IMG/VR virus record: IMGVR_UViG_2917403263_000005 | Length of the DNA stretch: 25,925 nucleotides | Reading direction: 5' to 3' (one strand) | Source: a virus | Lineage: Duplodnaviria > Heunggongvirae > Uroviricota > Caudoviricetes | In this document: positions 10,006 to 25,029 of the stretch, in pieces | Layout: each line of letters opens with the position of its first letter | How positions within the stretch are numbered: position 1 is the first letter of the stretch | The notes under the pieces: generated by a model | Told to the model about the DNA's origin: nothing | The model's database searches: none | The model's input: only the letters and a program-made list of their open reading frames with translations | Position numbers and translations under genes: made by a program

Positions 10006-10199
10006 AGTGGCGAACCTCCTGATTGGATTAGGCTTCGCCCTATGTTGAAGTGATTGTGCCTGACAAACAGCTAAGCGCAGTTGTACCGTTATTCATACAA
10101 AATGAGGGGAAGGCTTCAGAAGCTCACTCCACACTGGCGCTTATAGAGCTGTGTCTGATCATATGTTGATACAAGTACATAACGAATAAGCATGGTTAA

Positions 10200-10236: not shown

Positions 10237-11421
10237 TTATTTCTGTATTCTCACTGCCATTCTTTTTTGCACATCAAAAAATTTATTAATCACTCCATTG
10301 CGATTAATAAATGGATATTCTATACCTTTAAAAGTCATATAAGCGATAGTCACAACAATTGGCGACAACATCAGAATTAAATATGCGTATGAATTATCAC
10401 TCAAATTTCGCACATACGCCTTCCCGAGTAAAACATCTAAAGTAAAATATAGAACAATCCCGTGCATTAGATAGATACTATATGATATCTCACCAAAGAC
10501 TCTGGAGATTTTCAACTTTAACACACCAAATAGATCACATCCATTTACGATCAAAATAAATATAGCGCCGATCAATAAAATTGGCAGGTAATCAAACGAG
10601 TGAGGGAAGTAAAACAACGAAAAAACGAAACCTGAAACACACAAAAACGATGTCAATTTCAAAGATGCAACTTTTAAGATTAATTTATTACCTCGTACTG
10701 CTGAAGCTAAAAAGCCACAGGCGAATGGCAGCAAAAAGATGTAATTTAAGTTGAGGTAATTAAACGCATATAAGCTAAATGCAGGGATAACTAGCACAAA
10801 GATATTTTTGGTTCTTCTCAAAGCAAATGCAATGAGCGGTAGAGAAAAATAGAATAACCACTCATACACAAGCGTCCAATAAATACCAGCATATATATAA
10901 CCAGTATCACTAAATCCATTTATATGTGAATTACCATAAGTTGCATATATCATCCATGAAAGAATGGATTCAATTAGTTCACCTGCACTTACATTGAGTT
11001 TCCAGCCTGTTTTATATCCTATGATAAATAATGCAATTAAAAGCGAGAACATATACAGAGGATATATTCTAAAAATTCTTGATTTGTACAACGAGAACCA
11101 ATTTATTTTTTTTGAATCAATTATTTTAGAAAAAAACAAATACCCCGTTATCATAAAGAAAATCATAACGGGTAATTGCCCTGCATTCGCAAATACATGA
11201 CTTGAAGGTAAAGACCATTCATTTGTTTTTATAAAGTGATGCCATATATAAGAGTGATGCAGAAACACTAAGAAGGCCAAATACCCTCTTAATCCATCAA
11301 TATTAACGTTCCTACCTTTACCTTCAATTGGTAGCGGGCTTATTTTATCAAGAAAATACAATATGGCGATAGCTGCAAATATAGCAGCTACTATTAACAT
11401 AGGGCTATTATAAATTAACAT
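10237..11421 (-). CDS. acyltransferase-3 family integral membrane protein (putative O-antigen/LPS O-acyltransferase)
   Basis: 394-aa ORF, ATG at 11421 with AAGG 9 nt upstream. Polytopic hydrophobic protein with the N-terminal AT3 signature NIDGLRGYLAFLVFLHH (DGLRG...H). Two sampled 60-nt lines gave about 32% and 40% G+C, against about 52% in a sampled line of the flanking sheath gene. Confidence 0.8.
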   Translation of the reverse strand: MLIYNSPMLIVAAIFAAIAILYFLDKISPLPIEGKGRNVNIDGLRGYLAFLVFLHHSYIWHHFIKTNEWSLPSSHVFANAGQLPVMIFFMITGYLFFSKIIDSKKINWFSLYKSRIFRIYPLYMFSLLIALFIIGYKTGWKLNVSAGELIESILSWMIYATYGNSHINGFSDTGYIYAGIYWTLVYEWLFYFSLPLIAFALRRTKNIFVLVIPAFSLYAFNYLNLNYIFLLPFACGFLASAVRGNKLILKVASLKLTSFLCVSGFVFSLFYFPHSFDYLPILLIGAIFILIVNGCDLFGVLKLKISRVFGEISYSIYLMHGIVLYFTLDVLLGKAYVRNLSDNSYAYLILMLSPIVVTIAYMTFKGIEYPFINRNGVINKFFDVQKRMAVRIQK

Positions 11422-13771: not shown

Positions 13772-14373
13772 GGATTCACTCTCATTGTGTCAATAACATG
13801 GATCGCCCCGCCTTCATGCGCGGTGCCGCCAGAAATAATTGTTTCGTTGATATACGGATAGATCGTGATTTCTTCGCCAAGATAGCTGGCGGCCCCCACC
13901 CAATGCGGACCGCTGGTCTGCAGATTGATGGACATGCCGATCATGTGACGGCTACATGGTTTGGCATCGCTTATCAGTCGCTCAAGTTCCAGATAGGTAT
14001 CTTCAGTGATGCCCTGATCCTGCACGCCGATATCCAGGCGAAACGTGCCTGGTGTTTCTCCGGTCTGCCACCACTCAATAATGCGGATCAGAAAGCCGAA
14101 CGGCTCCACCACCCGCCGCACGGCACTGGTGGTTCCTTTGTGCTGATGAATATAAAAAGCATCCTTCACCACCTGGCGTTTGACGCTTTCTGTCCAGCTC
14201 TCGTCCCAGCGATCCACAGAGAACGCCCAGGCGAGATAAGGCAGGAAACTGACCGGACAGGTAGCCGGATCCCACAAGTCACGTAGCGGCACCTGCAAAT
14301 CAGAAATCCCGCTGCAGGTTTGTGCCAGTCGGCGCTCCAGTGGTGTTGAACCCGGTGGCAGCAGACTATTCAT
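13768..14373 (-). CDS. I: baseplate protein I
   Basis: 201 aa; motifs LPYLAWAFSVDRWDE and PGTFRLDIGV match P2 gpI. Confidence 0.85.
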   Translation of the reverse strand: MNSLLPPGSTPLERRLAQTCSGISDLQVPLRDLWDPATCPVSFLPYLAWAFSVDRWDESWTESVKRQVVKDAFYIHQHKGTTSAVRRVVEPFGFLIRIIEWWQTGETPGTFRLDIGVQDQGITEDTYLELERLISDAKPCSRHMIGMSINLQTSGPHWVGAASYLGEEITIYPYINETIISGGTAHEGGAIHVIDTMRVNP

Positions 14374-15274
14374 CCGTTCCTCCGTTGGTTACGCTCCACT
14401 GCGTACATGATGCCGCCTGCGTTTTGTTCAGAACCACATCCGCCAGCGGAGAAGCCAGTTCCACACGCTGCACACCCTCAACATGCAGCGCGGCAAAAAT
14501 GGCACTACGGCGAATATCCCGACCGAGCCGCGTCTGACTGGCAATGTACCTCTGCAGACTGGCTTTTGCCGCTGCCATTACCGGCTCTGCTTCCGGTCCC
14601 GGATAGAGAAAAATGGTGGCATCCACCCGGTACGGGATGATTTCTGCGCTGCGAACCGTCAGACGGTCAGCCACCGGGCGGACGTTCTCACTGTTCAGGG
14701 CTTTTTCCACCACGTCCAGCAGGTCTTTTTCTGCTGTTCCGTCGCCTTCGCGGCTAAGGACAGTCAGCACCACCTCTGCAGGTGCCGGACTGGTTGCACT
14801 GGCATCCGCCACCCGACCGTCGGCGCTTCGTGCATGAAATTCATAAGCGGCAGTTGGCCCCGCAACTGAAAGTCCTTCAAAGGCTGCAGGCACACGCAGG
14901 CGTAACGCTTCATCGCTTTCCATCACAGCCGCAACGGGCGGTACAGCGTCATCATCAGCAGGCGTCACCGTCAGGCGTTTCACGTTGTAGTTGGCAGCGA
15001 GCTGGTCCAGATCGCCGCCCATCGCATAAGCCACCATCACCGCCTGCGCGGCTTCGTTAATGCGCTGGCGCAGAAGCAGCTCACGATAAGCGTTCTCCTG
15101 CAACAATTTGGTGACGGGTTCAGATTCCAGTTCCAGCGTGCGGATCACTGCTTCCTGCTCATCTTTCGGATGAAGCGCCACAAATTCTGCCTTGCGTTCG
15201 GCAAGCAGCGTCTCAAAGTCCGACACATCCACAATCTGCGGCGCAGGCAACTGCGAAAGGTCAATCACTGCCAT
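14366..15274 (-). CDS. J: baseplate assembly protein J
   Basis: Matches P2 gpJ (MAVIDLSQLPAPQ...LHVEGVQRVELASPLADVVLN). Start placed at ATG 15274 (AGGAG 8 nt upstream) rather than the ORF-track start at 15313. Confidence 0.85.
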   Translation of the reverse strand: MAVIDLSQLPAPQIVDVSDFETLLAERKAEFVALHPKDEQEAVIRTLELESEPVTKLLQENAYRELLLRQRINEAAQAVMVAYAMGGDLDQLAANYNVKRLTVTPADDDAVPPVAAVMESDEALRLRVPAAFEGLSVAGPTAAYEFHARSADGRVADASATSPAPAEVVLTVLSREGDGTAEKDLLDVVEKALNSENVRPVADRLTVRSAEIIPYRVDATIFLYPGPEAEPVMAAAKASLQRYIASQTRLGRDIRRSAIFAALHVEGVQRVELASPLADVVLNKTQAASCTQWSVTNGGTDE

Positions 15275-15620
15275 TCTCTGCTCCTGTTGATACGGAAAGG
15301 GAAACAGGCACACCGTTATTACGCCGCCCGGTCAGCTCCACCACCATTGAACCGTCAAAATCGCTGTTGATGGTGATGGAATCCAGCGTCAGCCGTGGCT
15401 CCCAGCGACTCAGCGCCACATACACTGCCGACATGACCTGCAGGCGTAACGCCGAATTTTGTGGCTGATCTATCAGTGCCGACAGCAGGGAACCATATTC
15501 CCGGCGGGCAATGCGGCTACCCTGCGGCGTCAGCAGAATGTCCCGCACTGACTGGCGCAGATGGTCAATATCAGTAATGGTCTTGCCCGTTGCGCTGTTC
15601 ATGCCGTAATACATCGTCAT
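15261..15620 (-). CDS. W: baseplate wedge protein W (gp25-like)
   Basis: 119 aa; MTMYYGMNSATGKTITDIDHLRQSVRDILLTPQGSRIARREYGS matches P2 gpW; ATGA overlap with the V stop. Confidence 0.85.
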   Translation of the reverse strand: MTMYYGMNSATGKTITDIDHLRQSVRDILLTPQGSRIARREYGSLLSALIDQPQNSALRLQVMSAVYVALSRWEPRLTLDSITINSDFDGSMVVELTGRRNNGVPVSLSVSTGAENGSD

Positions 15621-16195
15621 ACCGGGCCTCCCGATGTGTCGCCGCCAGACTTCACTTTATTGTGCGCGTGGTCATCCACCACGATCTCGTTGGAACTCAT
15701 CGGGCCGCCGCCCTGAGTCACACCACCGTTGATCACCACCTCACTGTTAATACGGGTGGTGTCGGCTTCCACGATAAACTCCCCGGTTTTGAAGGTGACG
15801 TTATCCACCGCCTCGATCACCATGGATTTAATACCCCGAACGTACCAGCGCCCGATTTCGGGGTCGTACTCAAACCAGCCGCCGTCCGGGTATTCCGTCA
15901 CGTTGCCGTCCTCAGACCTGGACGGCGGCGGAAACTGGTTTGAATAGACGGCAGGCAGGGCAAAGGCGGTTTCCAGATTGCCGCCCAGGCTGAACAGCAC
16001 AACCTGCTCCCCCACAGACGGTTTCCACCAGGTGCGCGAGTTGCCCGCGCGCAGCGTCAGCCAGTTAATCCAGTTGGTTTCAAGCTCACCCGTTTTCACC
16101 CGGCACAGCCAGTTGTCCCGGTCCACTGCCGTTACAGTTCCGGTGCGGATTAGGTTGGTGATAAGGCGCATGATTTCTGTGAGTTGTGCGTTCAT
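15617..16195 (-). CDS. V: baseplate spike/assembly protein V
   Basis: 192 aa; MNAQLTEIMRLITNLIRTGTVTAVD...RSEDGNVTEYPDGG is P2 gpV-like; ATG at 16195. Confidence 0.85.
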   Translation of the reverse strand: MNAQLTEIMRLITNLIRTGTVTAVDRDNWLCRVKTGELETNWINWLTLRAGNSRTWWKPSVGEQVVLFSLGGNLETAFALPAVYSNQFPPPSRSEDGNVTEYPDGGWFEYDPEIGRWYVRGIKSMVIEAVDNVTFKTGEFIVEADTTRINSEVVINGGVTQGGGPMSSNEIVVDDHAHNKVKSGGDTSGGPV

Positions 16196-16251
16196 AGCTA
16201 TAGATTGCCATGAATGATGTATCTAAGAACAAGGTGAGCTTAGTCTGGTCC

Positions 16252-16279
16252 ATGACACAATTAAGAATTACTATATAAA
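16252..16279 (+). promoter_or_regulatory. candidate sigma70 promoter for the V-S cargo gene
   Basis: ATGACA (16252-16257), 16-bp spacer, TATAAA (16274-16279), about 30 nt upstream of ATG 16310. Hexamers read by eye in an AT-rich region, so this is weak. Confidence 0.3.
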
Positions 16280-16309
16280 AATTGTTAACTACTTGGTTGA
16301 GAAACAAAC

Positions 16310-17137
16310 ATGAAAAATAAGAACCAGTATCAGGCTTTACTTAGAGGGAAGGTCGAATCGGCGATTGCTCAAGCCAAAAGTGCTGCAGGATTTTCCCACC
16401 AGGGTGTTAAGGGAGCTGTTCTAGAAATATTATTAAGTCAACTATTTCGACCTCTTTTGCCCGCAGATGTTGGCATTGGCACAGGGCAAATCATTGAACA
16501 GTATTCAGGAAAGTTATCACCTCAAATAGATATTATTATTTACAATAAATCAATACTCCCTCCGATATTAATCGATGGTGCCACAGGGTTATTCCCAATA
16601 GAATCAGTTCTATATACCATTGAGGTAAAAACCACATTAAGCTCATCGGAACTCAGCTCTGCACACTCAAGTGCAAAAGAACTTAATGAGAAATTCGGTT
16701 ACTTACCTGGAATAAAAGATGAATCAGGCAAACTAATCCAACACAAAATAGAGAAACTTCGCTCGGTAATATTCGCTCTAAGTAGCGACTTATCACCAAA
16801 TGGAATTACTGAAGCCGAAAGGTATAAAAAAATATACAAAGAAGACTTTCGTTACGTTACAGCAATTTGCGTTGCAGGTCGTGAGTATAGTTATGAAGAT
16901 CGAGATTGCTGGGTAACAATGCGTAATACTCAAGCGTATGATGAAATCCTTGCATTTATTGGAGGCATAACCAATACATATAAAGGTGTTTCAGAAAGTC
17001 GTGGGACACCATTGCTAGGATATTACATTGTTCCAGAGAATGTCGAACTGAGCCTTACAGCTTGTACCACACTCCCGGAATTGCAAGTTAAGTGCACGCA
17101 ATGCGCTGAAACTAAAAAAAATAATCCCCACCTTTGA
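16310..17137 (+). CDS. uncharacterised PD-(D/E)xK-like nuclease-fold protein with C-terminal CxxC (cargo gene, frame as called)
   Basis: 275-aa ORF on the strand opposite all flanking late genes. Restriction-endonuclease-like motif pattern E39 ... D74 (PQIDIIIY) ... E105-x-K107 (YTIEVKTT). C262-x-x-C265 near the C-terminus. AT-rich: two sampled lines gave about 27% and 38% G+C. I cannot assign it to a named family. Confidence 0.6.
   Translation: MKNKNQYQALLRGKVESAIAQAKSAAGFSHQGVKGAVLEILLSQLFRPLLPADVGIGTGQIIEQYSGKLSPQIDIIIYNKSILPPILIDGATGLFPIESVLYTIEVKTTLSSSELSSAHSSAKELNEKFGYLPGIKDESGKLIQHKIEKLRSVIFALSSDLSPNGITEAERYKKIYKEDFRYVTAICVAGREYSYEDRDCWVTMRNTQAYDEILAFIGGITNTYKGVSESRGTPLLGYYIVPENVELSLTACTTLPELQVKCTQCAETKKNNPHL
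17114..17121 (+). repeat. A8 homopolymer at the point where the cargo ORF changes frame
   Basis: Counted directly: actAAAAAAAAtaat (17114-17121). In frame it reads ACT AAA AAA AAT AAT CCC CAC CTT TGA. Confidence 0.9.
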
Positions 17138-17297
17138 CAACGATGATGAACTAATACTAAAAAACTACACTATTACTGATAACAAGCCTTGTAAATGTGG
17201 TGGGGAATTTAAATCAGAAAAAGGTAATTTCACCATTAAAAATGGTCGACTGAGAGAAATAGAGTACAACGAGCCAGCTCGAATTTACAAAGAGTAA
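17136..17297 (+). other. out-of-frame coding continuation of the cargo gene (+1 frame, no start codon) carrying the second half of a zinc ribbon
   Basis: Open frame ...DNDDELILKNYTITDNKPCKCGGEFKSEKGNFTIKNGRLREIEYNEPARIYKE ending at TAA 17295-17297, 15 nt before the S stop. It has no ATG/GTG/TTG start of its own. Its CKC pairs with the upstream CTQC to give CxxC-x33-CxC. Confidence 0.55.
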
Positions 17298-17311
17298 ATA
17301 TAACGAAGGAA

Positions 17312-17758
17312 TTAAGGCCTTAGCCATTTATAAACGACAGATGCAATTTCATCTTTGTCAGATGAAGTAAAACCTAGTAACAGCCGCTCCGCATAACGTA
17401 CCTCTGGCCCCCGGCGGCTTACACGATCGAGCAGACCGTAATGGTGAACACGGGCAATACGCTGCACCTTGCCTTCAAACTGTACGCTGGCAGAGTCGGC
17501 GCTGGCGGCAGTTTTCAGGTATTTTGTGGTGCGCAGCTTTGCAAACATCTGACGTTTGATGCGCCCCTTTTTACTGCGTGCTGTTACCCGTCGCGGTTCA
17601 TAGCTGCTGCCGTCAGGGTTGCGCTGCATCCTGATATTCTGCTGCTGTGTCCGGCGCAGTTCCTGCGCCAGCTGACGCATCATGCGAATTCTTGCGGCTG
17701 GCTCCAGATTCGCCAGCAAGGCACTCAGCCAGTCGTCCACTTTCTGCAGTTCAGCCAC
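17312..17758 (-). CDS. S: tail completion protein S
   Basis: 148 aa, GTG start; (M)AELQKVDDWLSALLANLEPAARIRMMR resembles the P2 gpS N-terminus; overlaps the R stop. Confidence 0.85.
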   Translation of the reverse strand: MAELQKVDDWLSALLANLEPAARIRMMRQLAQELRRTQQQNIRMQRNPDGSSYEPRRVTARSKKGRIKRQMFAKLRTTKYLKTAASADSASVQFEGKVQRIARVHHYGLLDRVSRRGPEVRYAERLLLGFTSSDKDEIASVVYKWLRP

Positions 17759-18182
17759 GTTTCACCGTCCACATTTCTTCAGGTTCATCGGGTTCCGTTA
17801 TCGCTTCAACGCTCGACACACTTCCGTCAGTGCTGACCAGCACACGCTCCGTCAGTTGCAGGTTCAGGCTGATATCACAGACATCATTGCGCAGAATATC
17901 CACCTCAAAGGTGAATAACTTTTCCCGTAACGTCGGGTTATTGATGGCATCGGGCTGGTTATCCCGCAGCCACAGCAAAACCGGAGCCATCAGCAGATTC
18001 TGGTCGCCGCTGAAATCCTCGATCACCACGTTCAGGGTATAACGGTACTCCCATGACATGGAGCTGGCCCCCGTGGCAACCAGCGAACCGTTATCCACAA
18101 ACAGATGCAGTTTGTCCGGGTTATTACAGACATAAGGCACCGCTTTATTGAGGGCGTGGCGCAGGGATTGTGGTTTGTTCAC
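17751..18182 (-). CDS. R: tail completion protein R
   Basis: Alignment with P2 gpR begins at VNKPQSLRHALNKAV. Start placed at GTG 18182 (AGGAG 7 nt upstream) rather than the TTG at 18203 used by the ORF track. Confidence 0.85.
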   Translation of the reverse strand: MNKPQSLRHALNKAVPYVCNNPDKLHLFVDNGSLVATGASSMSWEYRYTLNVVIEDFSGDQNLLMAPVLLWLRDNQPDAINNPTLREKLFTFEVDILRNDVCDISLNLQLTERVLVSTDGSVSSVEAITEPDEPEEMWTVKRG

Positions 18183-18435
18183 TGTTTCGCTCCTGACACG
18201 CAATAATCATGTCCACTTTGTCTGCACAGACCGCCCAGGCAGCCTCCGTTTCATCCAGCAATGCGTTCAGATCACCGTTAGTGCGCGGCGCTGCCTGATC
18301 CAGCCGACACGGCGTCACTCGCGGACAACCACTGACGGTAAGCTGCACCTCCGGTGAGTGCCGGACGTTCCCGCAGCCGGATAATGTCAGCAGGCAAAGG
18401 AGTATCAGCCCAGCGGCGTAAATCCTCGTTCTCAC
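18145..18435 (-). CDS. lysC: LysC / Rz1-like outer-membrane lipoprotein (o-spanin), overlapping lysB
   Basis: 96 aa with signal peptide and lipobox LTLSGC, Pro-rich; embedded out of frame in the 3' part of lysB and running into R, as in P2. GTG start with GAGGA 8-9 nt upstream. Confidence 0.6.
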   Translation of the reverse strand: MRTRIYAAGLILLCLLTLSGCGNVRHSPEVQLTVSGCPRVTPCRLDQAAPRTNGDLNALLDETEAAWAVCADKVDMIIACQERNSEQTTIPAPRPQ

Positions 18436-18706
18436 TTTTCAGTTCCTCGATCCGGCGTTGTCGTTGTCTCAGCAATGCGCTGGTCTGTTCAGCTTCGGCA
18501 TAGAGCCGCGCCTGCTCCCGGTTATTGGTTTCAGTCAGAATGGACAGGCTGATAAGCTGGCTGTTGCTCTTTGCCAGTGCCTGGCTTTTGCTCTGCAGCT
18601 CGTCTGCCTGCGTGCTGATGGTCTGGCTGGCATCAGCCAGCCGCCACGTCTGCCAGCCCAGCGCCGCCAGTAATAACGCCAGCATAACCAGCAGCAACCG
18701 GTTCAT
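18278..18706 (-). CDS. lysB: LysB / Rz-like inner-membrane spanin
   Basis: 142 aa; N-terminal TM anchor MNRLLLVMLALLLAALGW followed by a long coiled-coil-like region rich in Q/E/R/L. Confidence 0.7.
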   Translation of the reverse strand: MNRLLLVMLALLLAALGWQTWRLADASQTISTQADELQSKSQALAKSNSQLISLSILTETNNREQARLYAEAEQTSALLRQRQRRIEELKSENEDLRRWADTPLPADIIRLRERPALTGGAAYRQWLSASDAVSAGSGSAAH

Positions 18707-19080
18707 GCTGCTACCTGTTGCGCCATCTGGTTACGGGTGATCCGGAAGGCAATAACGGTCAGCAGATAAAAGACCAGGGTAATGGCCCACCCCGTCCAGG
18801 CGAGACTTACGACAATCAGCAATCGCATCACCCAGCTGATAAATACGTTTTCTTTTCGGGTAATGGTCTTCAGCAAAGATGCCCTCAACTCCTGCCAGAG
18901 CGGGCCGTTCTTAATTAACGCAGCCAGTGATACCGGAATTACCGCCCATGTCAGCAGACAGGCTACCCAGACACCGGACGCTGCCAGTACCGGAAAAATC
19001 CCCTGCGGATACACCATTGCTGCGATCAACAGCGCCATCCATAACATCAGAAACAGCCCGCTGATTACTTTCTTTTTCAT
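18703..19080 (-). CDS. lysA: LysA-like membrane protein (lysis timing)
   Basis: Four predicted TM segments. Start placed at ATG 19080 (MKKKVISGLF...), directly after the endolysin stop, rather than the ORF-track start at 19152. Confidence 0.6.
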   Translation of the reverse strand: MKKKVISGLFLMLWMALLIAAMVYPQGIFPVLAASGVWVACLLTWAVIPVSLAALIKNGPLWQELRASLLKTITRKENVFISWVMRLLIVVSLAWTGWAITLVFYLLTVIAFRITRNQMAQQVAA

Positions 19081-19081
19081 T

Positions 19082-19594
19082 TCAGTTTGCTCCCTGTAAG
19101 CACCAGGCCATCTCCCGCGCACGGCGGTTATCCAGCCCCTGATTAAACACACCTTTTACATACACCCAGCGCGGCAACTGTCGGCACGCATCCGCCCAGC
19201 GCCGCTGATTGAGCAATTTCACCAGCGTGGAACTACAGGCATTGCCCGTCCCCACGTTGAAGGCAAACGACACCGTAGCGTCATACACCTTCTGCGGTGG
19301 CTGTTGCTTCACACACCTTTCCAGCGCCCGCTCCACACGCAGCACGTTGGAGATCAGCCCTTCTGCTGCCTGTCGCTCCGTAATGGTTTTGCCGGGAATG
19401 ACGCCCGACGTATTACCAATGCCGTCGGTCCAGACACCCGCGCTGCACTGATACGGCTGCAGACGACAACCTTCGTAATCGGCAATCAGTTTCAGCCCTT
19501 CCACGGAGGTGTGAAGCTGCTGAAAACCCGGCAGCGTGGCAGCAATAGCCAGCACGGCCCCGACAAGGCAGCGTTTAACGATTGATGGATTCAT
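19082..19594 (-). CDS. SAR-type endolysin (T4-lysozyme/GH24-like, P1 Lyz / phage 21 R-like)
   Basis: 170 aa. N-terminal weakly hydrophobic Gly/Ala-rich segment KRCLVGAVLAIAATLPGF, then catalytic block EGCRLQPYQCSAGVWTDGIGNT characteristic of SAR lysozymes. Confidence 0.85.
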   Translation of the reverse strand: MNPSIVKRCLVGAVLAIAATLPGFQQLHTSVEGLKLIADYEGCRLQPYQCSAGVWTDGIGNTSGVIPGKTITERQAAEGLISNVLRVERALERCVKQQPPQKVYDATVSFAFNVGTGNACSSTLVKLLNQRRWADACRQLPRWVYVKGVFNQGLDNRRAREMAWCLQGAN

Positions 19595-23198: not shown

Positions 23199-23216
23199 TG
23201 TACCGACAACCACACA
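23199..23216. promoter_or_regulatory. candidate Ogr-responsive late-promoter element (TGT-N12-ACA) in the O/P divergent region
   Basis: Exact TGTaccgacaaccacACA read in the 142-bp intergenic region between divergent O (start 23120) and P (start 23263). Centre is about 55 bp upstream of a plausible O transcription start near 23152. Confidence 0.4.
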
Positions 23217-23262
23217 AACCGCAGGCGGGGAAAGCCTTCATTCAAGGCTGTAGGTTTGTGCC

Positions 23263-25029
23263 ATGAACACCACACTGACACCCGCAGATCTCGATCCCCG
23301 TCGGCAGGCCATGCTGCTGTACTTTCAGGGATACCGCGTAGCCCGCATTGCTGAAATGCTGGGCGAGAAAGTTGCAACCGTTCACAGCTGGAAAAAACGC
23401 GACAAGTGGGGTGACTATGGGCCGCTGGATCAGATGCAGCTCACCACCGCCGCACGCTACTGCCAGCTCATTATGAAGGAGCACAAAGAAGGGAAAGATT
23501 TCAAAGAGATTGACCTGCTGGCGCGCCAGTCGGAGCGCCACGCGCGGATCGGCAAGTTTAACAATGGCGGCAACGAAGCCGACTTAAACCCTAACGTCGC
23601 CAACCGCAACAAAGGGCCGCGCCGTCAGCCGGAAAAGAATGTTTTCACCGATGAACAGATTGAGAAGCTGGAAGAAATCTTCCATTCCTCCATGTTCAAC
23701 TACCAGCGCCACTGGTGGGAAGCAGGAAAAACCAACCGCATCCGTAATCTGCTGAAGTCACGCCAGATCGGCGCGACCTTTTACTTTGCCCGTGAAGCCC
23801 TGATTGACGCCCTGCTTACCGGACGTAACCAGATTTTCCTTTCTGCCAGTAAGGCACAGGCGCACGTCTTTAAGCAGTACATCATCGATTTTGCCAAAGA
23901 AGTCGAAGTGGAGCTGAAAGGCGATCCGATGGTGCTTCCTAACGGTGCCACGCTTTACTTCCTCGGCACCAATGCCCGCACGGCCCAGAGTTATCACGGC
24001 AACCTGTATCTGGATGAATATTTCTGGATACCGAAATTTCAGGAGCTGCGCAAAGTGGCTTCCGGTATGGCTATTCACAAAAAATGGCGACAAACCTATT
24101 TTTCCACGCCATCCAGCCTGACCCACAGTGCTTATCCGTTCTGGTCCGGTGCGCTGTTCAATCGTGGGCGCAACAAAGCCGATAAGGTGGACATCGACCT
24201 GTCCCACAACAATCTGGCCCCCGGCCTGCTGTGCGCAGACGGGCAATACCGCCAGATAGTCACCGTGGAAGATGCGGTGCGCGGCGGCTGTAACCTGTTC
24301 GATCTCGACCAGTTGCGCATGGAGTACAGCCCGGACGAATACCAGAACCTGCTGATGTGTGAGTTCGTGGACGATCTCGCGTCCGTGTTCCCGCTCAGCG
24401 AGCTGCAGGCGTGCATGGTGGACAGTTGGGAAGTCTGGACCGACTTTCATGCACTGGCGCTGCGCCCGTTTGGCTGGCGCGAGGTTTGGATCGGTTATGA
24501 CCCGGCAAAAGGTACGCAGAACGGCGACAGCGCCGGATGCGTGGTGGTGGCACCGCCAGCCGTGCCGGGCGGTAAGTTCCGCATTCTTGAGCGTCACCAG
24601 TGGCGCGGGATGGACTTCCGCGCCCAGGCTGACGCCATCAAAAAACTGACCGAACAGTATAACGTGACCTATATCGGCATCGACTCGACCGGCGTCGGTC
24701 ACGGGGTTTACGAGAACGTGAAAGCATTTTTTCCTGCCGTCAGGGAGTTTGTCTACAACCCCAACGTTAAAAACGCCCTGGTACTCAAGGCCTACGACAT
24801 TATCAGCCACCGCCGTCTGGAGTTTGACGCCGGGCACACCGACATTGCGCAGTCATTTATGGCAATCCGTCGCGCCACCACTGCCAGTGGCAACCGCCCG
24901 ACCTATGAAGCCAGCCGCAGCGAAGAAGCCAGCCATGCCGATCTGGCCTGGGCAACAATGCACGCACTGTTTAACGAACCGCTGCAGGGCGAGTCCGCCA
25001 ATACCAGCAATATTGTGGAGATTTTTTGA
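23263..25029 (+). CDS. P: terminase large (ATPase) subunit P
   Basis: 588 aa; MNTTLTPADLDPRRQAMLLYFQGYRVARIAEMLGEK... matches P2 gpP; divergent from O. Confidence 0.9.
   Translation: MNTTLTPADLDPRRQAMLLYFQGYRVARIAEMLGEKVATVHSWKKRDKWGDYGPLDQMQLTTAARYCQLIMKEHKEGKDFKEIDLLARQSERHARIGKFNNGGNEADLNPNVANRNKGPRRQPEKNVFTDEQIEKLEEIFHSSMFNYQRHWWEAGKTNRIRNLLKSRQIGATFYFAREALIDALLTGRNQIFLSASKAQAHVFKQYIIDFAKEVEVELKGDPMVLPNGATLYFLGTNARTAQSYHGNLYLDEYFWIPKFQELRKVASGMAIHKKWRQTYFSTPSSLTHSAYPFWSGALFNRGRNKADKVDIDLSHNNLAPGLLCADGQYRQIVTVEDAVRGGCNLFDLDQLRMEYSPDEYQNLLMCEFVDDLASVFPLSELQACMVDSWEVWTDFHALALRPFGWREVWIGYDPAKGTQNGDSAGCVVVAPPAVPGGKFRILERHQWRGMDFRAQADAIKKLTEQYNVTYIGIDSTGVGHGVYENVKAFFPAVREFVYNPNVKNALVLKAYDIISHRRLEFDAGHTDIAQSFMAIRRATTASGNRPTYEASRSEEASHADLAWATMHALFNEPLQGESANTSNIVEIF

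What the first reader, a model, noticed from the sequence alone, without database searches (positions are those of the whole stretch)
16196..17311. Uncharacterised opposite-strand cargo gene between tail genes V and S: PD-(D/E)xK-like nuclease plus zinc ribbon, candidate novel prophage defence/exclusion gene
In the P2 family, S and V are separated at most by a small ORF (orf30 in P2, as I recall). Here the slot holds a 1.1-kb AT-rich insert (about 27-38% G+C in sampled lines) transcribed against the flanking late operons, with its own promoter-like hexamers, so it can be expressed in the lysogen independently of Ogr. The product has the restriction-endonuclease motif arrangement E39 / D74 (QIDIIIY) / E105-V-K107 (TIEVK), reminiscent of Hjc- or Mrr-type catalytic cores. 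It ends in CxxC which, with the frame-shifted continuation, completes a CxxC-x33-CxC zinc ribbon. I do not recognise it as any named defence family. Nuclease-plus-sensor single-gene systems in prophage hotspots are a recurring source of new anti-phage functions.
Basis: partly seen in the sequence, partly recalled or inferred. Interest (0 to 1): 0.85.

Follow-up and report, generated by a model that had tools for sequence, protein, structure and literature searches.

The report
NucC-like nuclease cargo in P2 prophage
Between two tail genes of a P2-like prophage sits an imported gene for a DNA-cutting enzyme built like the bacterial immune nuclease NucC but lacking its signal-binding residues and carrying an extra zinc-ribbon domain, so it is a credible, untested single-gene anti-phage candidate rather than an entirely new kind of system, and the copy in this window carries a frameshift.

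Summary
An AT-rich insert (36-41% G+C against 55-60%) lies between gpV and gpS and carries one opposite-strand gene. An A8 run (17114-17121) cuts the ORF to 275 aa; relatives with A7 encode 328 aa.

It is not a canonical NucC. Two cA3-contact residues are replaced (R53 to D, Y81 to I), no cyclase or Cas10 gene is a conserved neighbour, and an 85-residue variable zinc-ribbon domain is added.

Context supports defence. Of 53 sampled related E. coli prophages, 32 have this slot empty; others hold SIR2, TIR or ApeA-like genes. Alleles 51-98% identical recur in the slot, in a Vibrio integron cassette and next to an island integrase.

The nearest named system is Damona, a validated DUF6602 single-gene defence. 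I could not obtain its sequence, so membership is unproven.

Verdict: the nuclease-plus-zinc-ribbon reading is right and the defence role plausible but untested. The family is partly catalogued, so this is a new variant of a known kind. Interest is moderate.

The parts
16196..17311 (.). AT-rich cargo region that fills the whole gpV-gpS intergenic space. Related prophages with an empty slot have 68 bp here.
   Evidence: G+C is 0.36-0.41 against 0.55-0.60 in the flanks. The empty-slot comparison is L065. The insert differs by 0.6-0.9% from the copies in L001, L039, L043 and L044, while the flanks differ by 3.5-6%.
16242..16259 (.). Ogr-type dyad of the late V promoter, AGT-N12-ACA, one mismatch from TGT-N12-ACA. 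It lies 47-64 bp upstream of gpV, so the cargo sits between the S stop codon and the V promoter.
   Evidence: A dyad sits at the same distance from V in empty and filled slots (L065, L061, L063, L064, L033, L037; L036 also has AGT). Perfect dyads elsewhere in the window lie upstream of the sheath gene and between O and P. That these dyads bind Ogr is prior knowledge of P2 late promoters, not tested here.
16252..16279 (+). Candidate sigma-70-like promoter for the cargo gene: ATGACA-N16-TATAAA. It overlaps the right half of the Ogr-type dyad.
   Evidence: Read directly from the sequence. The consensus scan did not call it. It is no more than a chance-level match in AT-rich DNA.
16310..17137 (+). 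ORF as it stands in the window, 275 aa. It covers the NucC-like PD-(D/E)xK core (residues 1-240), a linker and the first CxxC of the zinc ribbon, then a premature TGA.
   Evidence: It is identical to TGB88081.1/P0140 of Escherichia sp. E3659. Pfam DUF6602 matches residues 25-126.
16310..17029 (+). NucC-fold nuclease core, residues 1-240. It holds catalytic E39, D74, E98, E105 and K107, the invariant Gly-rich loop P48-I61, and a gate-loop-like coil at 129-150.
17114..17121 (+). A8 homopolymer that causes the frameshift. Intact relatives have A7.
   Evidence: A8 is found on two different haplotypes of the insert (the window and L043), and A7 is found on both haplotypes as well.
17138..17297 (+). 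Continuation in the +1 frame. It encodes the rest of the C-terminal domain (...FDNDDELILKNYTITDNKPCKCGG...IYKE), including C294 and C296. The stop codon is TAA at 17295-17297.
   Evidence: The fused sequence is identical to P0138. C262, C265, C294 and C296 are invariant in 60 homologues.
15617..16195 (-). gpV, baseplate assembly protein V. Left border of the slot.
   Evidence: PGAP annotation of near-identical loci. Pfam Phage_base_V in related loci.
17312..17758 (-). gpS, virion morphogenesis / tail completion protein. Right border of the slot, convergent with the cargo gene.
   Evidence: PGAP annotation. Pfam Phage_tail_S in related loci.

Best explanation
The insert is a one-gene accessory module (a 'moron') carried in the variable gpS-gpV slot of a P2-like prophage of Escherichia sp. 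E3659. Its intact product is 328 aa. It is a Mg2+-dependent PD-(D/E)xK DNA endonuclease whose first 240 residues take the whole fold of NucC, the DNase effector of CBASS and type III CRISPR systems. A C-terminal four-cysteine zinc-ribbon domain of about 85 residues is added to that core. The most likely function is a self-contained anti-phage or exclusion nuclease. It would be made in the lysogen, kept inactive as a NucC-like oligomer, and switched on during infection to cut DNA. The target could be the invader's DNA or, as with NucC, all DNA in the cell (abortive infection). Control would not come from cyclic tri-AMP made by a partner cyclase. It would come from the remodelled pocket and/or the fast-evolving zinc-ribbon domain acting as sensor or DNA-binding module. 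What is shown: the fold, the invariant catalytic residues, the invariant cysteines, the loss of two cA3 contacts, the absence of a partner gene, purifying selection, and mobility among known cargo and defence hotspots. What is inferred: oligomeric state, trigger, DNA target, expression in the lysogen, and the anti-phage phenotype itself. In this window the gene has an A8 frameshift. It removes the second half of the zinc ribbon, so this copy may be inactive or may depend on slippage.
For: Family and fold:
- Pfam DUF6602, E 8e-22. PADLOC PD_DExK 4.5e-32 and NucC effector 4e-14 over residues 6-216.
- PDB sequence hits are NucC only.

Conservation and selection:
- E39, D74, E98, E105, K107, C262, C265, C294 and C296 are invariant.
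- dN/dS is 0.08-0.10.

Context:
- There is no conserved neighbour in 24 diverse loci, and no cyclase or Cas10 gene.
- The gene's G+C is below its locus's almost everywhere.
- The S-V slot is empty in 32 and occupied in 21 of 53 sampled E. coli relatives. Cargo there includes SIR2 (ThsA/LmuA-like), TIR and ApeA-like genes.
- Alleles 51-98% identical occupy the same slot in Salmonella, Kluyvera, Enterobacter, Cronobacter and Janthinobacterium, and in 13 of 15 IMG/VR contigs.
- Other members are a Vibrio integron cassette, lie next to the integrase of an island beside smpB, or have neighbours matching PADLOC PtuA (E about 1e-168), PDC-M01 and PDC-S51 models.
- A core-only relative lies beside RVT_1 and DUF4238 genes.

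Precedent: a DUF6602 single-gene cassette, Damona, protects against phage (10.1101/2024.07.02.601686). NucC is an established immune DNase (10.1101/694703).
Against: - No experiment exists for this subfamily, and no paper in the searchable library mentions it.
- The link to Damona is at domain level only.
- No promoter or terminator was called by the scan, so expression in the lysogen is assumed.
- The window copy is frameshifted.
- The pocket keeps a gate-loop-length insertion and an invariant Gly-rich loop, so a small-molecule ligand cannot be excluded.
Confidence: 0.62

Rival explanations
1. It is an orphan NucC: a cA3-activated effector carried by the prophage that responds to cyclic trinucleotides made by a CBASS or type III CRISPR system elsewhere in the host.
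For: It shares the whole NucC fold, including the N-terminal helix and a 22-residue coil where NucC has its gate loop. It matches NucC HMMs.
Against: The cA3 phosphate contact R53 is an invariant Asp, and the adenine-stacking Y81 is an invariant Ile. No cyclase or Cas10 gene appears among 122 neighbours in 24 loci. The family is spread as a solitary gene on phages, integrons and islands across many genera, which would not guarantee a matching signal source.
Confidence: 0.07
2. It is a selfish, free-standing homing-type endonuclease. It cuts the empty S-V junction of related phages and is copied in by repair, which would explain why it recurs in the same slot.
For: The same slot is occupied in distantly related P2-like phages. 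The cargo is 5-7 times less diverged than its flanks among near relatives, which suggests recent lateral spread. A nuclease joined to a zinc-ribbon DNA-binding-type module is a common homing-endonuclease layout (from general knowledge).
Against: The slot also takes many unrelated cargo genes in either orientation, so slot recurrence needs no homing. Family members also sit in integron cassettes, next to an island integrase, and at unrelated chromosomal sites with no common flanks. The nearest structural relative, NucC, is largely non-specific. In Janthinobacterium the gene has the opposite orientation relative to the tail genes.
Confidence: 0.07
3. It serves the phage itself rather than the host. 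It might degrade host or competitor DNA during lytic growth, or act against P4-like satellites or host defences.
For: It is phage-borne and lies next to late genes. The candidate promoter overlaps the Ogr-type dyad of the V promoter, so late-stage regulation is conceivable.
Against: It is absent from most relatives, so it is dispensable. It is transcribed against the late operons. Members occur in non-phage settings such as integron cassettes and defence-type neighbourhoods.
Confidence: 0.1
4. In this particular genome the gene is a dead pseudogene. The A8 frameshift is real and the truncated 275-aa product is non-functional.
For: A8 is in the window and in an independent Logan assembly on a different haplotype. 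The truncation removes two of the four zinc ligands.
Against: A second record under the same strain name encodes the intact 328-aa protein with otherwise identical sequence. Homopolymer miscalls are common. An A8 run could allow some slippage back into frame (general knowledge, not tested). This rival concerns only this copy and does not change what the family is.
Confidence: 0.35

Closest known systems
NucC, the cA3-activated DNA endonuclease effector of type III CBASS and type III CRISPR-Cas (PDB 6p7p, 6q1h, 6uxf, 7zgv)
   Different: Sequence identity is only 16-20%. The cA3 contacts R53 and Y81 are replaced by invariant D53 and I82, and an invariant Gly-rich loop (D-x-G-x-G-T-G-Q-I) takes that position. 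There is no CD-NTase or Cas10 neighbour. An extra four-cysteine C-terminal domain of about 85 residues is present. The gene is solitary on mobile elements.
Damona, a single-gene anti-phage system from the Vibrio cholerae N16961 chromosomal integron (Darracq et al., bioRxiv 10.1101/2024.07.02.601686)
   Same: It is described as a DUF6602 protein that also matches Cas PD_DExK and the CBASS small endonuclease. My searches gave the same three matches. It is a single gene, and the paper reports its homologues mostly in prophages. A member of the present family is itself a Vibrio integron cassette.
   Different: The Damona sequence could not be retrieved. No V. cholerae or Acinetobacter protein appears among the 120 best hits to this family from two queries. 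Both genera do appear in a second DUF6602 subfamily of about 355 aa. That subfamily is 27-30% identical, lacks the gate-loop segment and the four-cysteine ribbon, and has an insertion of about 85 residues. Damona therefore probably belongs to a different branch.
Core-only DUF6602 relatives of about 230-260 aa, mostly metagenomic
   Same: They are 35-44% identical over the whole core, including the catalytic residues, most of the PLLPxD-G-x-G-T-G loop and the gate-loop region. One lies in a defence-type neighbourhood with RVT_1 and DUF4238 genes.
   Different: They end at the LGxYL motif (residue 240) and have no zinc-ribbon domain. They are uncharacterised.
Type IIP/IIF restriction endonucleases of the NgoMIV / SgrAI / Bse634I / BbvCI group
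   Different: The similarity is far weaker than to NucC. There is no methyltransferase partner and no evidence of sequence specificity.
P2 orf30 and other occupants of the S-V slot (SIR2, TIR, ApeA-like, DUF2971, DUF6216 and FRG genes)
   Same: They occupy the same position in the phage genome as single-gene accessory cargo. That P2's orf30 sits here is recalled from the P2 literature and was not tested.
   Different: The proteins are unrelated. The analogy is one of position only.

Membership tests
Pfam DUF6602 (PF20247) | Profile score above the curated gathering threshold | tested here: met
   77.5 bits against a cutoff of 27, E 8e-22, residues 25-126. All listed homologues carry PF20247.
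PD-(D/E)xK nuclease superfamily | A conserved acidic/lysine catalytic constellation on a restriction-endonuclease-like core | tested here: met
   E39, D74, E105 and K107 are invariant in 37 and 60 homologues. They align to NucC D73/E104/K106. The fold matches NucC and type II restriction enzymes.
NucC (CBASS / type III CRISPR effector) | Overall NucC fold | tested here: met
NucC (CBASS / type III CRISPR effector) | cA3-binding pocket residues shown by mutation to be required (R53, Y81, T226 in E. coli NucC) | tested here: not met
   R53 aligns to invariant D53 and Y81 to invariant I82. T226 could not be mapped, because there is no sequence-level match for the C-terminal half of the core.
NucC (CBASS / type III CRISPR effector) | Genomic association with a CD-NTase or a Cas10 cyclase | tested here: not met
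   It is the only gene in the S-V slot. No cyclase or Cas10 family appears among the most frequent families of 122 neighbours in 24 loci, and no family recurs in more than 3 neighbours.
NucC (CBASS / type III CRISPR effector) | Homotrimer that forms a hexamer on activation | not testable with these tools
Damona (DefenseFinder-type single-gene system) | Single gene encoding a DUF6602 nuclease-like protein | tested here: met
Damona (DefenseFinder-type single-gene system) | Sequence homology to the V. cholerae N16961 Damona protein at the level its authors used (blastp) | tested here: inconclusive
   The sequence is not in the text or in the stored part of the supplement. No V. cholerae or Acinetobacter hit appears among the best 120 for this family. 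Both genera occur in a different DUF6602 subfamily.
Damona (DefenseFinder-type single-gene system) | Demonstrated anti-phage activity | not testable with these tools
   This needs cloning and phage challenge.
Zinc ribbon | Two Cys pairs (knuckles) on a small beta domain | tested here: met
   C262-x2-C265 and C294-x-C296 are invariant. The model is beta-rich at residues 247-319, with pLDDT 82-97 over residues 251-320. Only sub-threshold matches to generic Zn-ribbon Pfam families were found. Metal binding itself was not tested.
Core gene of P2-like phages | Present and syntenic in essentially all members | tested here: not met
   3 of 1055 E. coli genomes with the related region carry it. The slot is empty in 32 of 53 sampled relatives.
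Homing endonuclease | Confined to one target site and spread by conversion of empty sites | tested here: inconclusive
   It recurs in the S-V slot. It also occurs in an integron cassette, an island and unrelated loci. Cleavage specificity was not tested.

The most novel reading that the evidence does not exclude
A NucC-fold DNase has been uncoupled from cyclic-oligonucleotide signalling. The three-fold allosteric pocket has been rebuilt: Arg to Asp, Tyr to Ile, and a new invariant Gly-rich loop. A fast-evolving zinc-ribbon domain has been added as a built-in sensor. One 328-aa protein would then both detect infection and carry out DNA destruction. It would be a one-protein counterpart of the cyclase-plus-NucC effector pair, spread as a cassette among P2-like prophage tail-gene slots, integrons and satellite-like islands. 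A slip-prone A7/A8 tract might in addition switch it on and off.
Probability: 0.25. Interest if true: 0.7.

Novelty: new variant of a known kind. Interest (0 to 1): 0.5.

Why it matters
If the intact protein protects against phage, it would show how an immune effector that normally waits for a second messenger can become autonomous. The changes would be a remodelled ligand pocket and a small added sensor domain. That gives a compact model for studying how abortive-infection nucleases are triggered. It would also add the gpS-gpV junction to the places in P2-like prophages worth mining for defence genes. The papers I could read named the gpA-gpQ hotspot, the Z/fun hotspot and a tail-to-CI hotspot. 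One of them also noted less populated hotspots, including one 'within the tail genes'. In practical terms the gene is short and self-contained and has clear mutational targets: D74, E105, K107, the four cysteines, D53 and I82.

Tried and rejected
Searches that returned nothing useful:
- NCBIfam gave no match. PHROGs gave only a weak match to an unannotated family.
- The phage collection holds no close relative, only two partial hits from another DUF6602 subfamily.
- I tried to obtain the Damona sequence by searching the paper text, the stored part of its supplement and citing papers. None gives a locus tag or sequence.
- Looking for V. cholerae members by cluster look-up and by a second search from a Vibrio member found none in this family.

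Steps that were blocked or failed:
- Mapping NucC T226 with a profile of the C-terminal half of the core found no PDB match.

Ideas considered and rejected:
- Hjc- or Mrr-type core: NucC is far closer.
- Core morphogenesis gene: the gene is rare and the slot is usually empty.
- cA3 sponge or decoy: the catalytic residues are invariant and the cA3 contacts are lost.
- An operon partner or toxin-antitoxin pair: no conserved neighbour exists.
- The borderline Pfam 'Fin' hit in some homologues: it falls at residues 159-202, not on the zinc ribbon, so I disregarded it.

Full report
**What is in the sequence.** The window is an exact match to contig PDID01000004.1 of Escherichia sp. E3659, GCA_004745145.1. 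It holds the host genes ybjM and ybjL, followed by most of a P2/186-like prophage. The prophage gene order is ogr, D, U, T, E, FII, FI, a cargo gene, G, H, I, J, W, V, the insert, S, R, lysis genes, X, L, M, N, O and P. gpV lies at 15617-16195 and gpS at 17312-17758, both on the minus strand. Between them is 1116 bp with 36-41% G+C against 55-60% in the flanks. The insert carries one plus-strand ORF, 16310-17137, of 275 aa.

**The frameshift.** The ORF stops just after a CxxC pair. The next frame stays open to 17297 and supplies a CxC pair. The cause is an A8 run at 17114-17121. Three complete E. coli genomes carry the same insert at 99.3% identity with A7, and there it is annotated as an intact 328-aa "DUF6602 domain-containing protein", WP_021515772.1.
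- A second protein record under the same strain name (TLJ13571.1) is identical to the window sequence with one A removed.
- A8 also occurs in an independent assembly on a different haplotype of the insert, and A7 occurs on both haplotypes.
- The tract has therefore changed length at least twice, or has been misread at least twice. I cannot tell sequencing error from real, possibly recurrent, slippage.
- The truncated product lacks two of the four cysteines.

**What the protein is.** It matches Pfam DUF6602 (E 8e-22), PADLOC's Cas-associated PD_DExK model (4.5e-32) and NucC effector models (4e-14, residues 6-216). Sequence searches of the PDB find only NucC.
- An AlphaFold2 model of the 98%-identical Salmonella protein, built on a 60-sequence alignment, is confident (pLDDT 86.5, pTM 0.85).
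- In Foldseek, all 14 hits with E at or below 0.001 are NucC chains.
- Residues 1-240 are therefore a complete NucC-type fold, not just a generic nuclease core.
- Residues 247-319 form an extra beta-rich domain. It gives only sub-threshold matches to generic zinc-ribbon families.

**Conservation.** About 300 homologues of 312-330 aa cover the full length at 48-70% identity. They come from Gamma- and Betaproteobacteria, Sulfurovum and others.
- E39, D74, E98, E105, K107 and C262, C265, C294, C296 are invariant.
- Where synonymous sites are not saturated, dN/dS is 0.08-0.10.
- The nuclease core is much more conserved than the C-terminal domain: 68% against 34-37% mean pairwise identity.
- A profile search of 1.84 billion representative proteins finds 252 clusters at E at or below 1e-30. 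Only about a dozen of the best 150 have the C-terminal domain. Most are core-only proteins of 230-260 aa that end at residue 240 of our numbering.
- The zinc ribbon is therefore a subfamily-specific addition.

**Why it is not a canonical NucC.** Lau et al. showed that R53, Y81 and T226 of E. coli NucC bind cyclic tri-AMP and are required for activation. D73, E104 and K106 form the active site (10.1101/694703).
- In an ungapped, high-confidence profile alignment the active site matches residue for residue. R53 corresponds to an invariant Asp and Y81 to an invariant Ile.
- That segment is part of an invariant Gly-rich loop, P-L-L-P-x-D-x-G-x-G-T-G-Q-I, which canonical NucC lacks. T226 could not be mapped.
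- A 22-residue coil with near-invariant aromatic residues remains where NucC has its gate loop. A pocket may therefore persist with a different ligand. This is unexplained.
- No cyclase or Cas10 gene is nearby. Among 122 neighbours in 24 diverse loci, no family recurs in more than three.

**Genomic context.** In a spread sample of E. coli genomes carrying the related phage region, the S-V slot is 68 bp and empty in 32 of 53 cases. In 21 cases it is filled by a single unrelated gene or an IS element, in either orientation. The cargo includes a ThsA/LmuA-like SIR2 protein, a TIR protein, a full-length ApeA-like protein, and DUF2971, DUF6216 and FRG proteins.
- An Ogr-type TGT-N12-ACA dyad lies 47-64 bp upstream of V in empty and filled slots. 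The window has AGT-N12-ACA at 16242-16259. Cargo therefore enters between the S stop codon and the V late promoter.
- Alleles of this family, 51-98% identical, sit in the same slot in Salmonella, Kluyvera, Enterobacter, Cronobacter and a metagenomic enterobacterium. They also occur there in 13 of 15 IMG/VR contigs and in Janthinobacterium, where the gene is co-oriented with the tail genes.
- Among near relatives the insert differs by 0.6-0.9% while the flanks differ by 3.5-6%. Among distant ones the cargo is more diverged than gpV and gpR. This pattern fits exchange of cassettes better than vertical descent.
- Outside P2-like phages, a member is a cassette between attC-like repeats in a Vibrio integron. 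A common Enterobacter hormaechei allele sits close to the integrase of an island beside smpB.
- The gene's G+C is below its locus's almost everywhere.

**Comparison with what is known.** The only paper in the searchable library that mentions DUF6602 describes Damona. It is a single-gene cassette from the V. cholerae integron with anti-phage activity. It is described as DUF6602 with matches to Cas PD_DExK and the CBASS small endonuclease, and its homologues are reported mainly in Acinetobacter prophages.
- I could not obtain its sequence.
- Neither V. cholerae nor Acinetobacter appears among the best 120 hits to the present family.
- Both appear in a second DUF6602 subfamily. That subfamily is 27-30% identical, lacks the gate-loop segment and the four-cysteine ribbon, and has a long insertion.
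- Damona is therefore the closest named system in function and domain, but membership is unproven and a different branch is likely.
- The papers I read on P2 hotspots name the gpA-gpQ, Z/fun and tail-to-CI regions, plus less populated ones "within the tail genes". None names the S-V junction.

**Mechanism and rivals.** The best-supported reading is a self-contained defence or exclusion DNase. It has a NucC-type catalytic machine, regulated by its rebuilt pocket and/or the variable zinc-ribbon domain rather than by a partner cyclase.
- The catalytic machinery, the loss of cA3 contacts, the solitary state and the mobile, defence-type context are shown.
- Oligomerisation, the trigger, the DNA target, expression in the lysogen and the phenotype are inferred.
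- Rival readings are an orphan cA3-responsive effector, a homing-type selfish nuclease, a nuclease that serves the phage, and a dead copy in this strain. Each has specific evidence against it, or concerns only this copy.

**Verdict.** The Hjc/Mrr comparison and the claim that it belongs to no named family are not. The Pfam family is already catalogued, and a DUF6602 protein has been validated as a defence gene. That makes this a new variant of a known kind, with moderate interest.

Noticed in passing
window 17114-17121: The A7/A8 tract has changed length on two different haplotypes of the insert. A8 is on the window haplotype and on the L001-type haplotype in SRR32904615, and A7 is on both as well. 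This could be recurrent slippage (phase variation, or loss of a costly nuclease) or repeated homopolymer miscalls.
   Followed up: partly
window 10237-11421 (-): A second accessory gene sits between the sheath gene FI and the tail-fibre assembly gene, in the Z/fun position. It is a 393-aa Acyl_transf_3 family membrane acyltransferase with no PADLOC match. Similar genes sit near the tail-fibre genes in the Kluyvera locus (L033) and the metagenomic locus (L037). It could modify a surface receptor; this was not examined.
   Followed up: partly
window 14000-18664 compared with L001, L039, L043 and L044: The cargo insert differs by only 0.6-0.9% from other copies, while the adjoining V/W/J and S/R genes differ by 3.5-6%. 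This suggests recent transfer of the cassette between P2-like prophages, or recombination in the flanks.
   Followed up: partly
window 16242-16259; also 10082-10099, 23199-23216 and 23257-23274: Ogr-type TGT-N12-ACA dyads lie upstream of FI and between O and P. The one upstream of V reads AGT-N12-ACA, as it does in the Cronobacter locus L036. It overlaps the candidate -35 hexamer of the cargo gene.
   Followed up: partly
E. coli loci L061-L064, same S-V slot: Other single-gene cargo in this slot includes a 400-aa SIR2 protein (ThsA/LmuA-like), a 265-aa TIR protein, a 583-aa ApeA-like protein (PADLOC E 1e-12 over the full length) and a 401-aa protein with no PADLOC match. They occur in either orientation.
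   Followed up: partly
L060 (Klebsiella phage ST13-OXA48phi12.3, 2923-4002): A second DUF6602 subfamily of about 355 aa occurs in a Klebsiella phage two genes away from a GIY-YIG nuclease gene. It also occurs in V. cholerae, Aeromonas and Acinetobacter baumannii. It keeps the catalytic residues but has a different C-terminal architecture.
   Followed up: partly
L066 6001-6702: A core-only relative of 233 aa lies between an HsdM_N fragment and genes for a 591-aa reverse transcriptase (RVT_1) and a DUF4238 protein. This looks like a defence island.
   Followed up: no
L028-L032 (Enterobacter hormaechei): A common allele (62% identical, listed in 779 blocks of the collection) sits about 1.2 kb downstream of a tyrosine integrase, with one 214-aa gene between them. 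The island lies beside smpB and also carries AlpA and a DUF927 primase-like gene, so it resembles a satellite or PICI-type element.
   Followed up: no
window 18664-19093, ORF 18703-19152 (-): A segment of the lysis region does not align with the otherwise 96%-identical E. coli A41 prophage. Its 148-aa ORF has no Pfam or PADLOC match. The sequence is hydrophobic and could be a LysA-type membrane protein.
   Followed up: no
model of P0001, residues 227-232: A loop holding near-invariant S230 and invariant R231 is predicted with very low confidence (pLDDT below 50) although its sequence is conserved. It lies near where NucC has its T226/V227 ligand contacts and could become ordered on binding something.
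   Followed up: no
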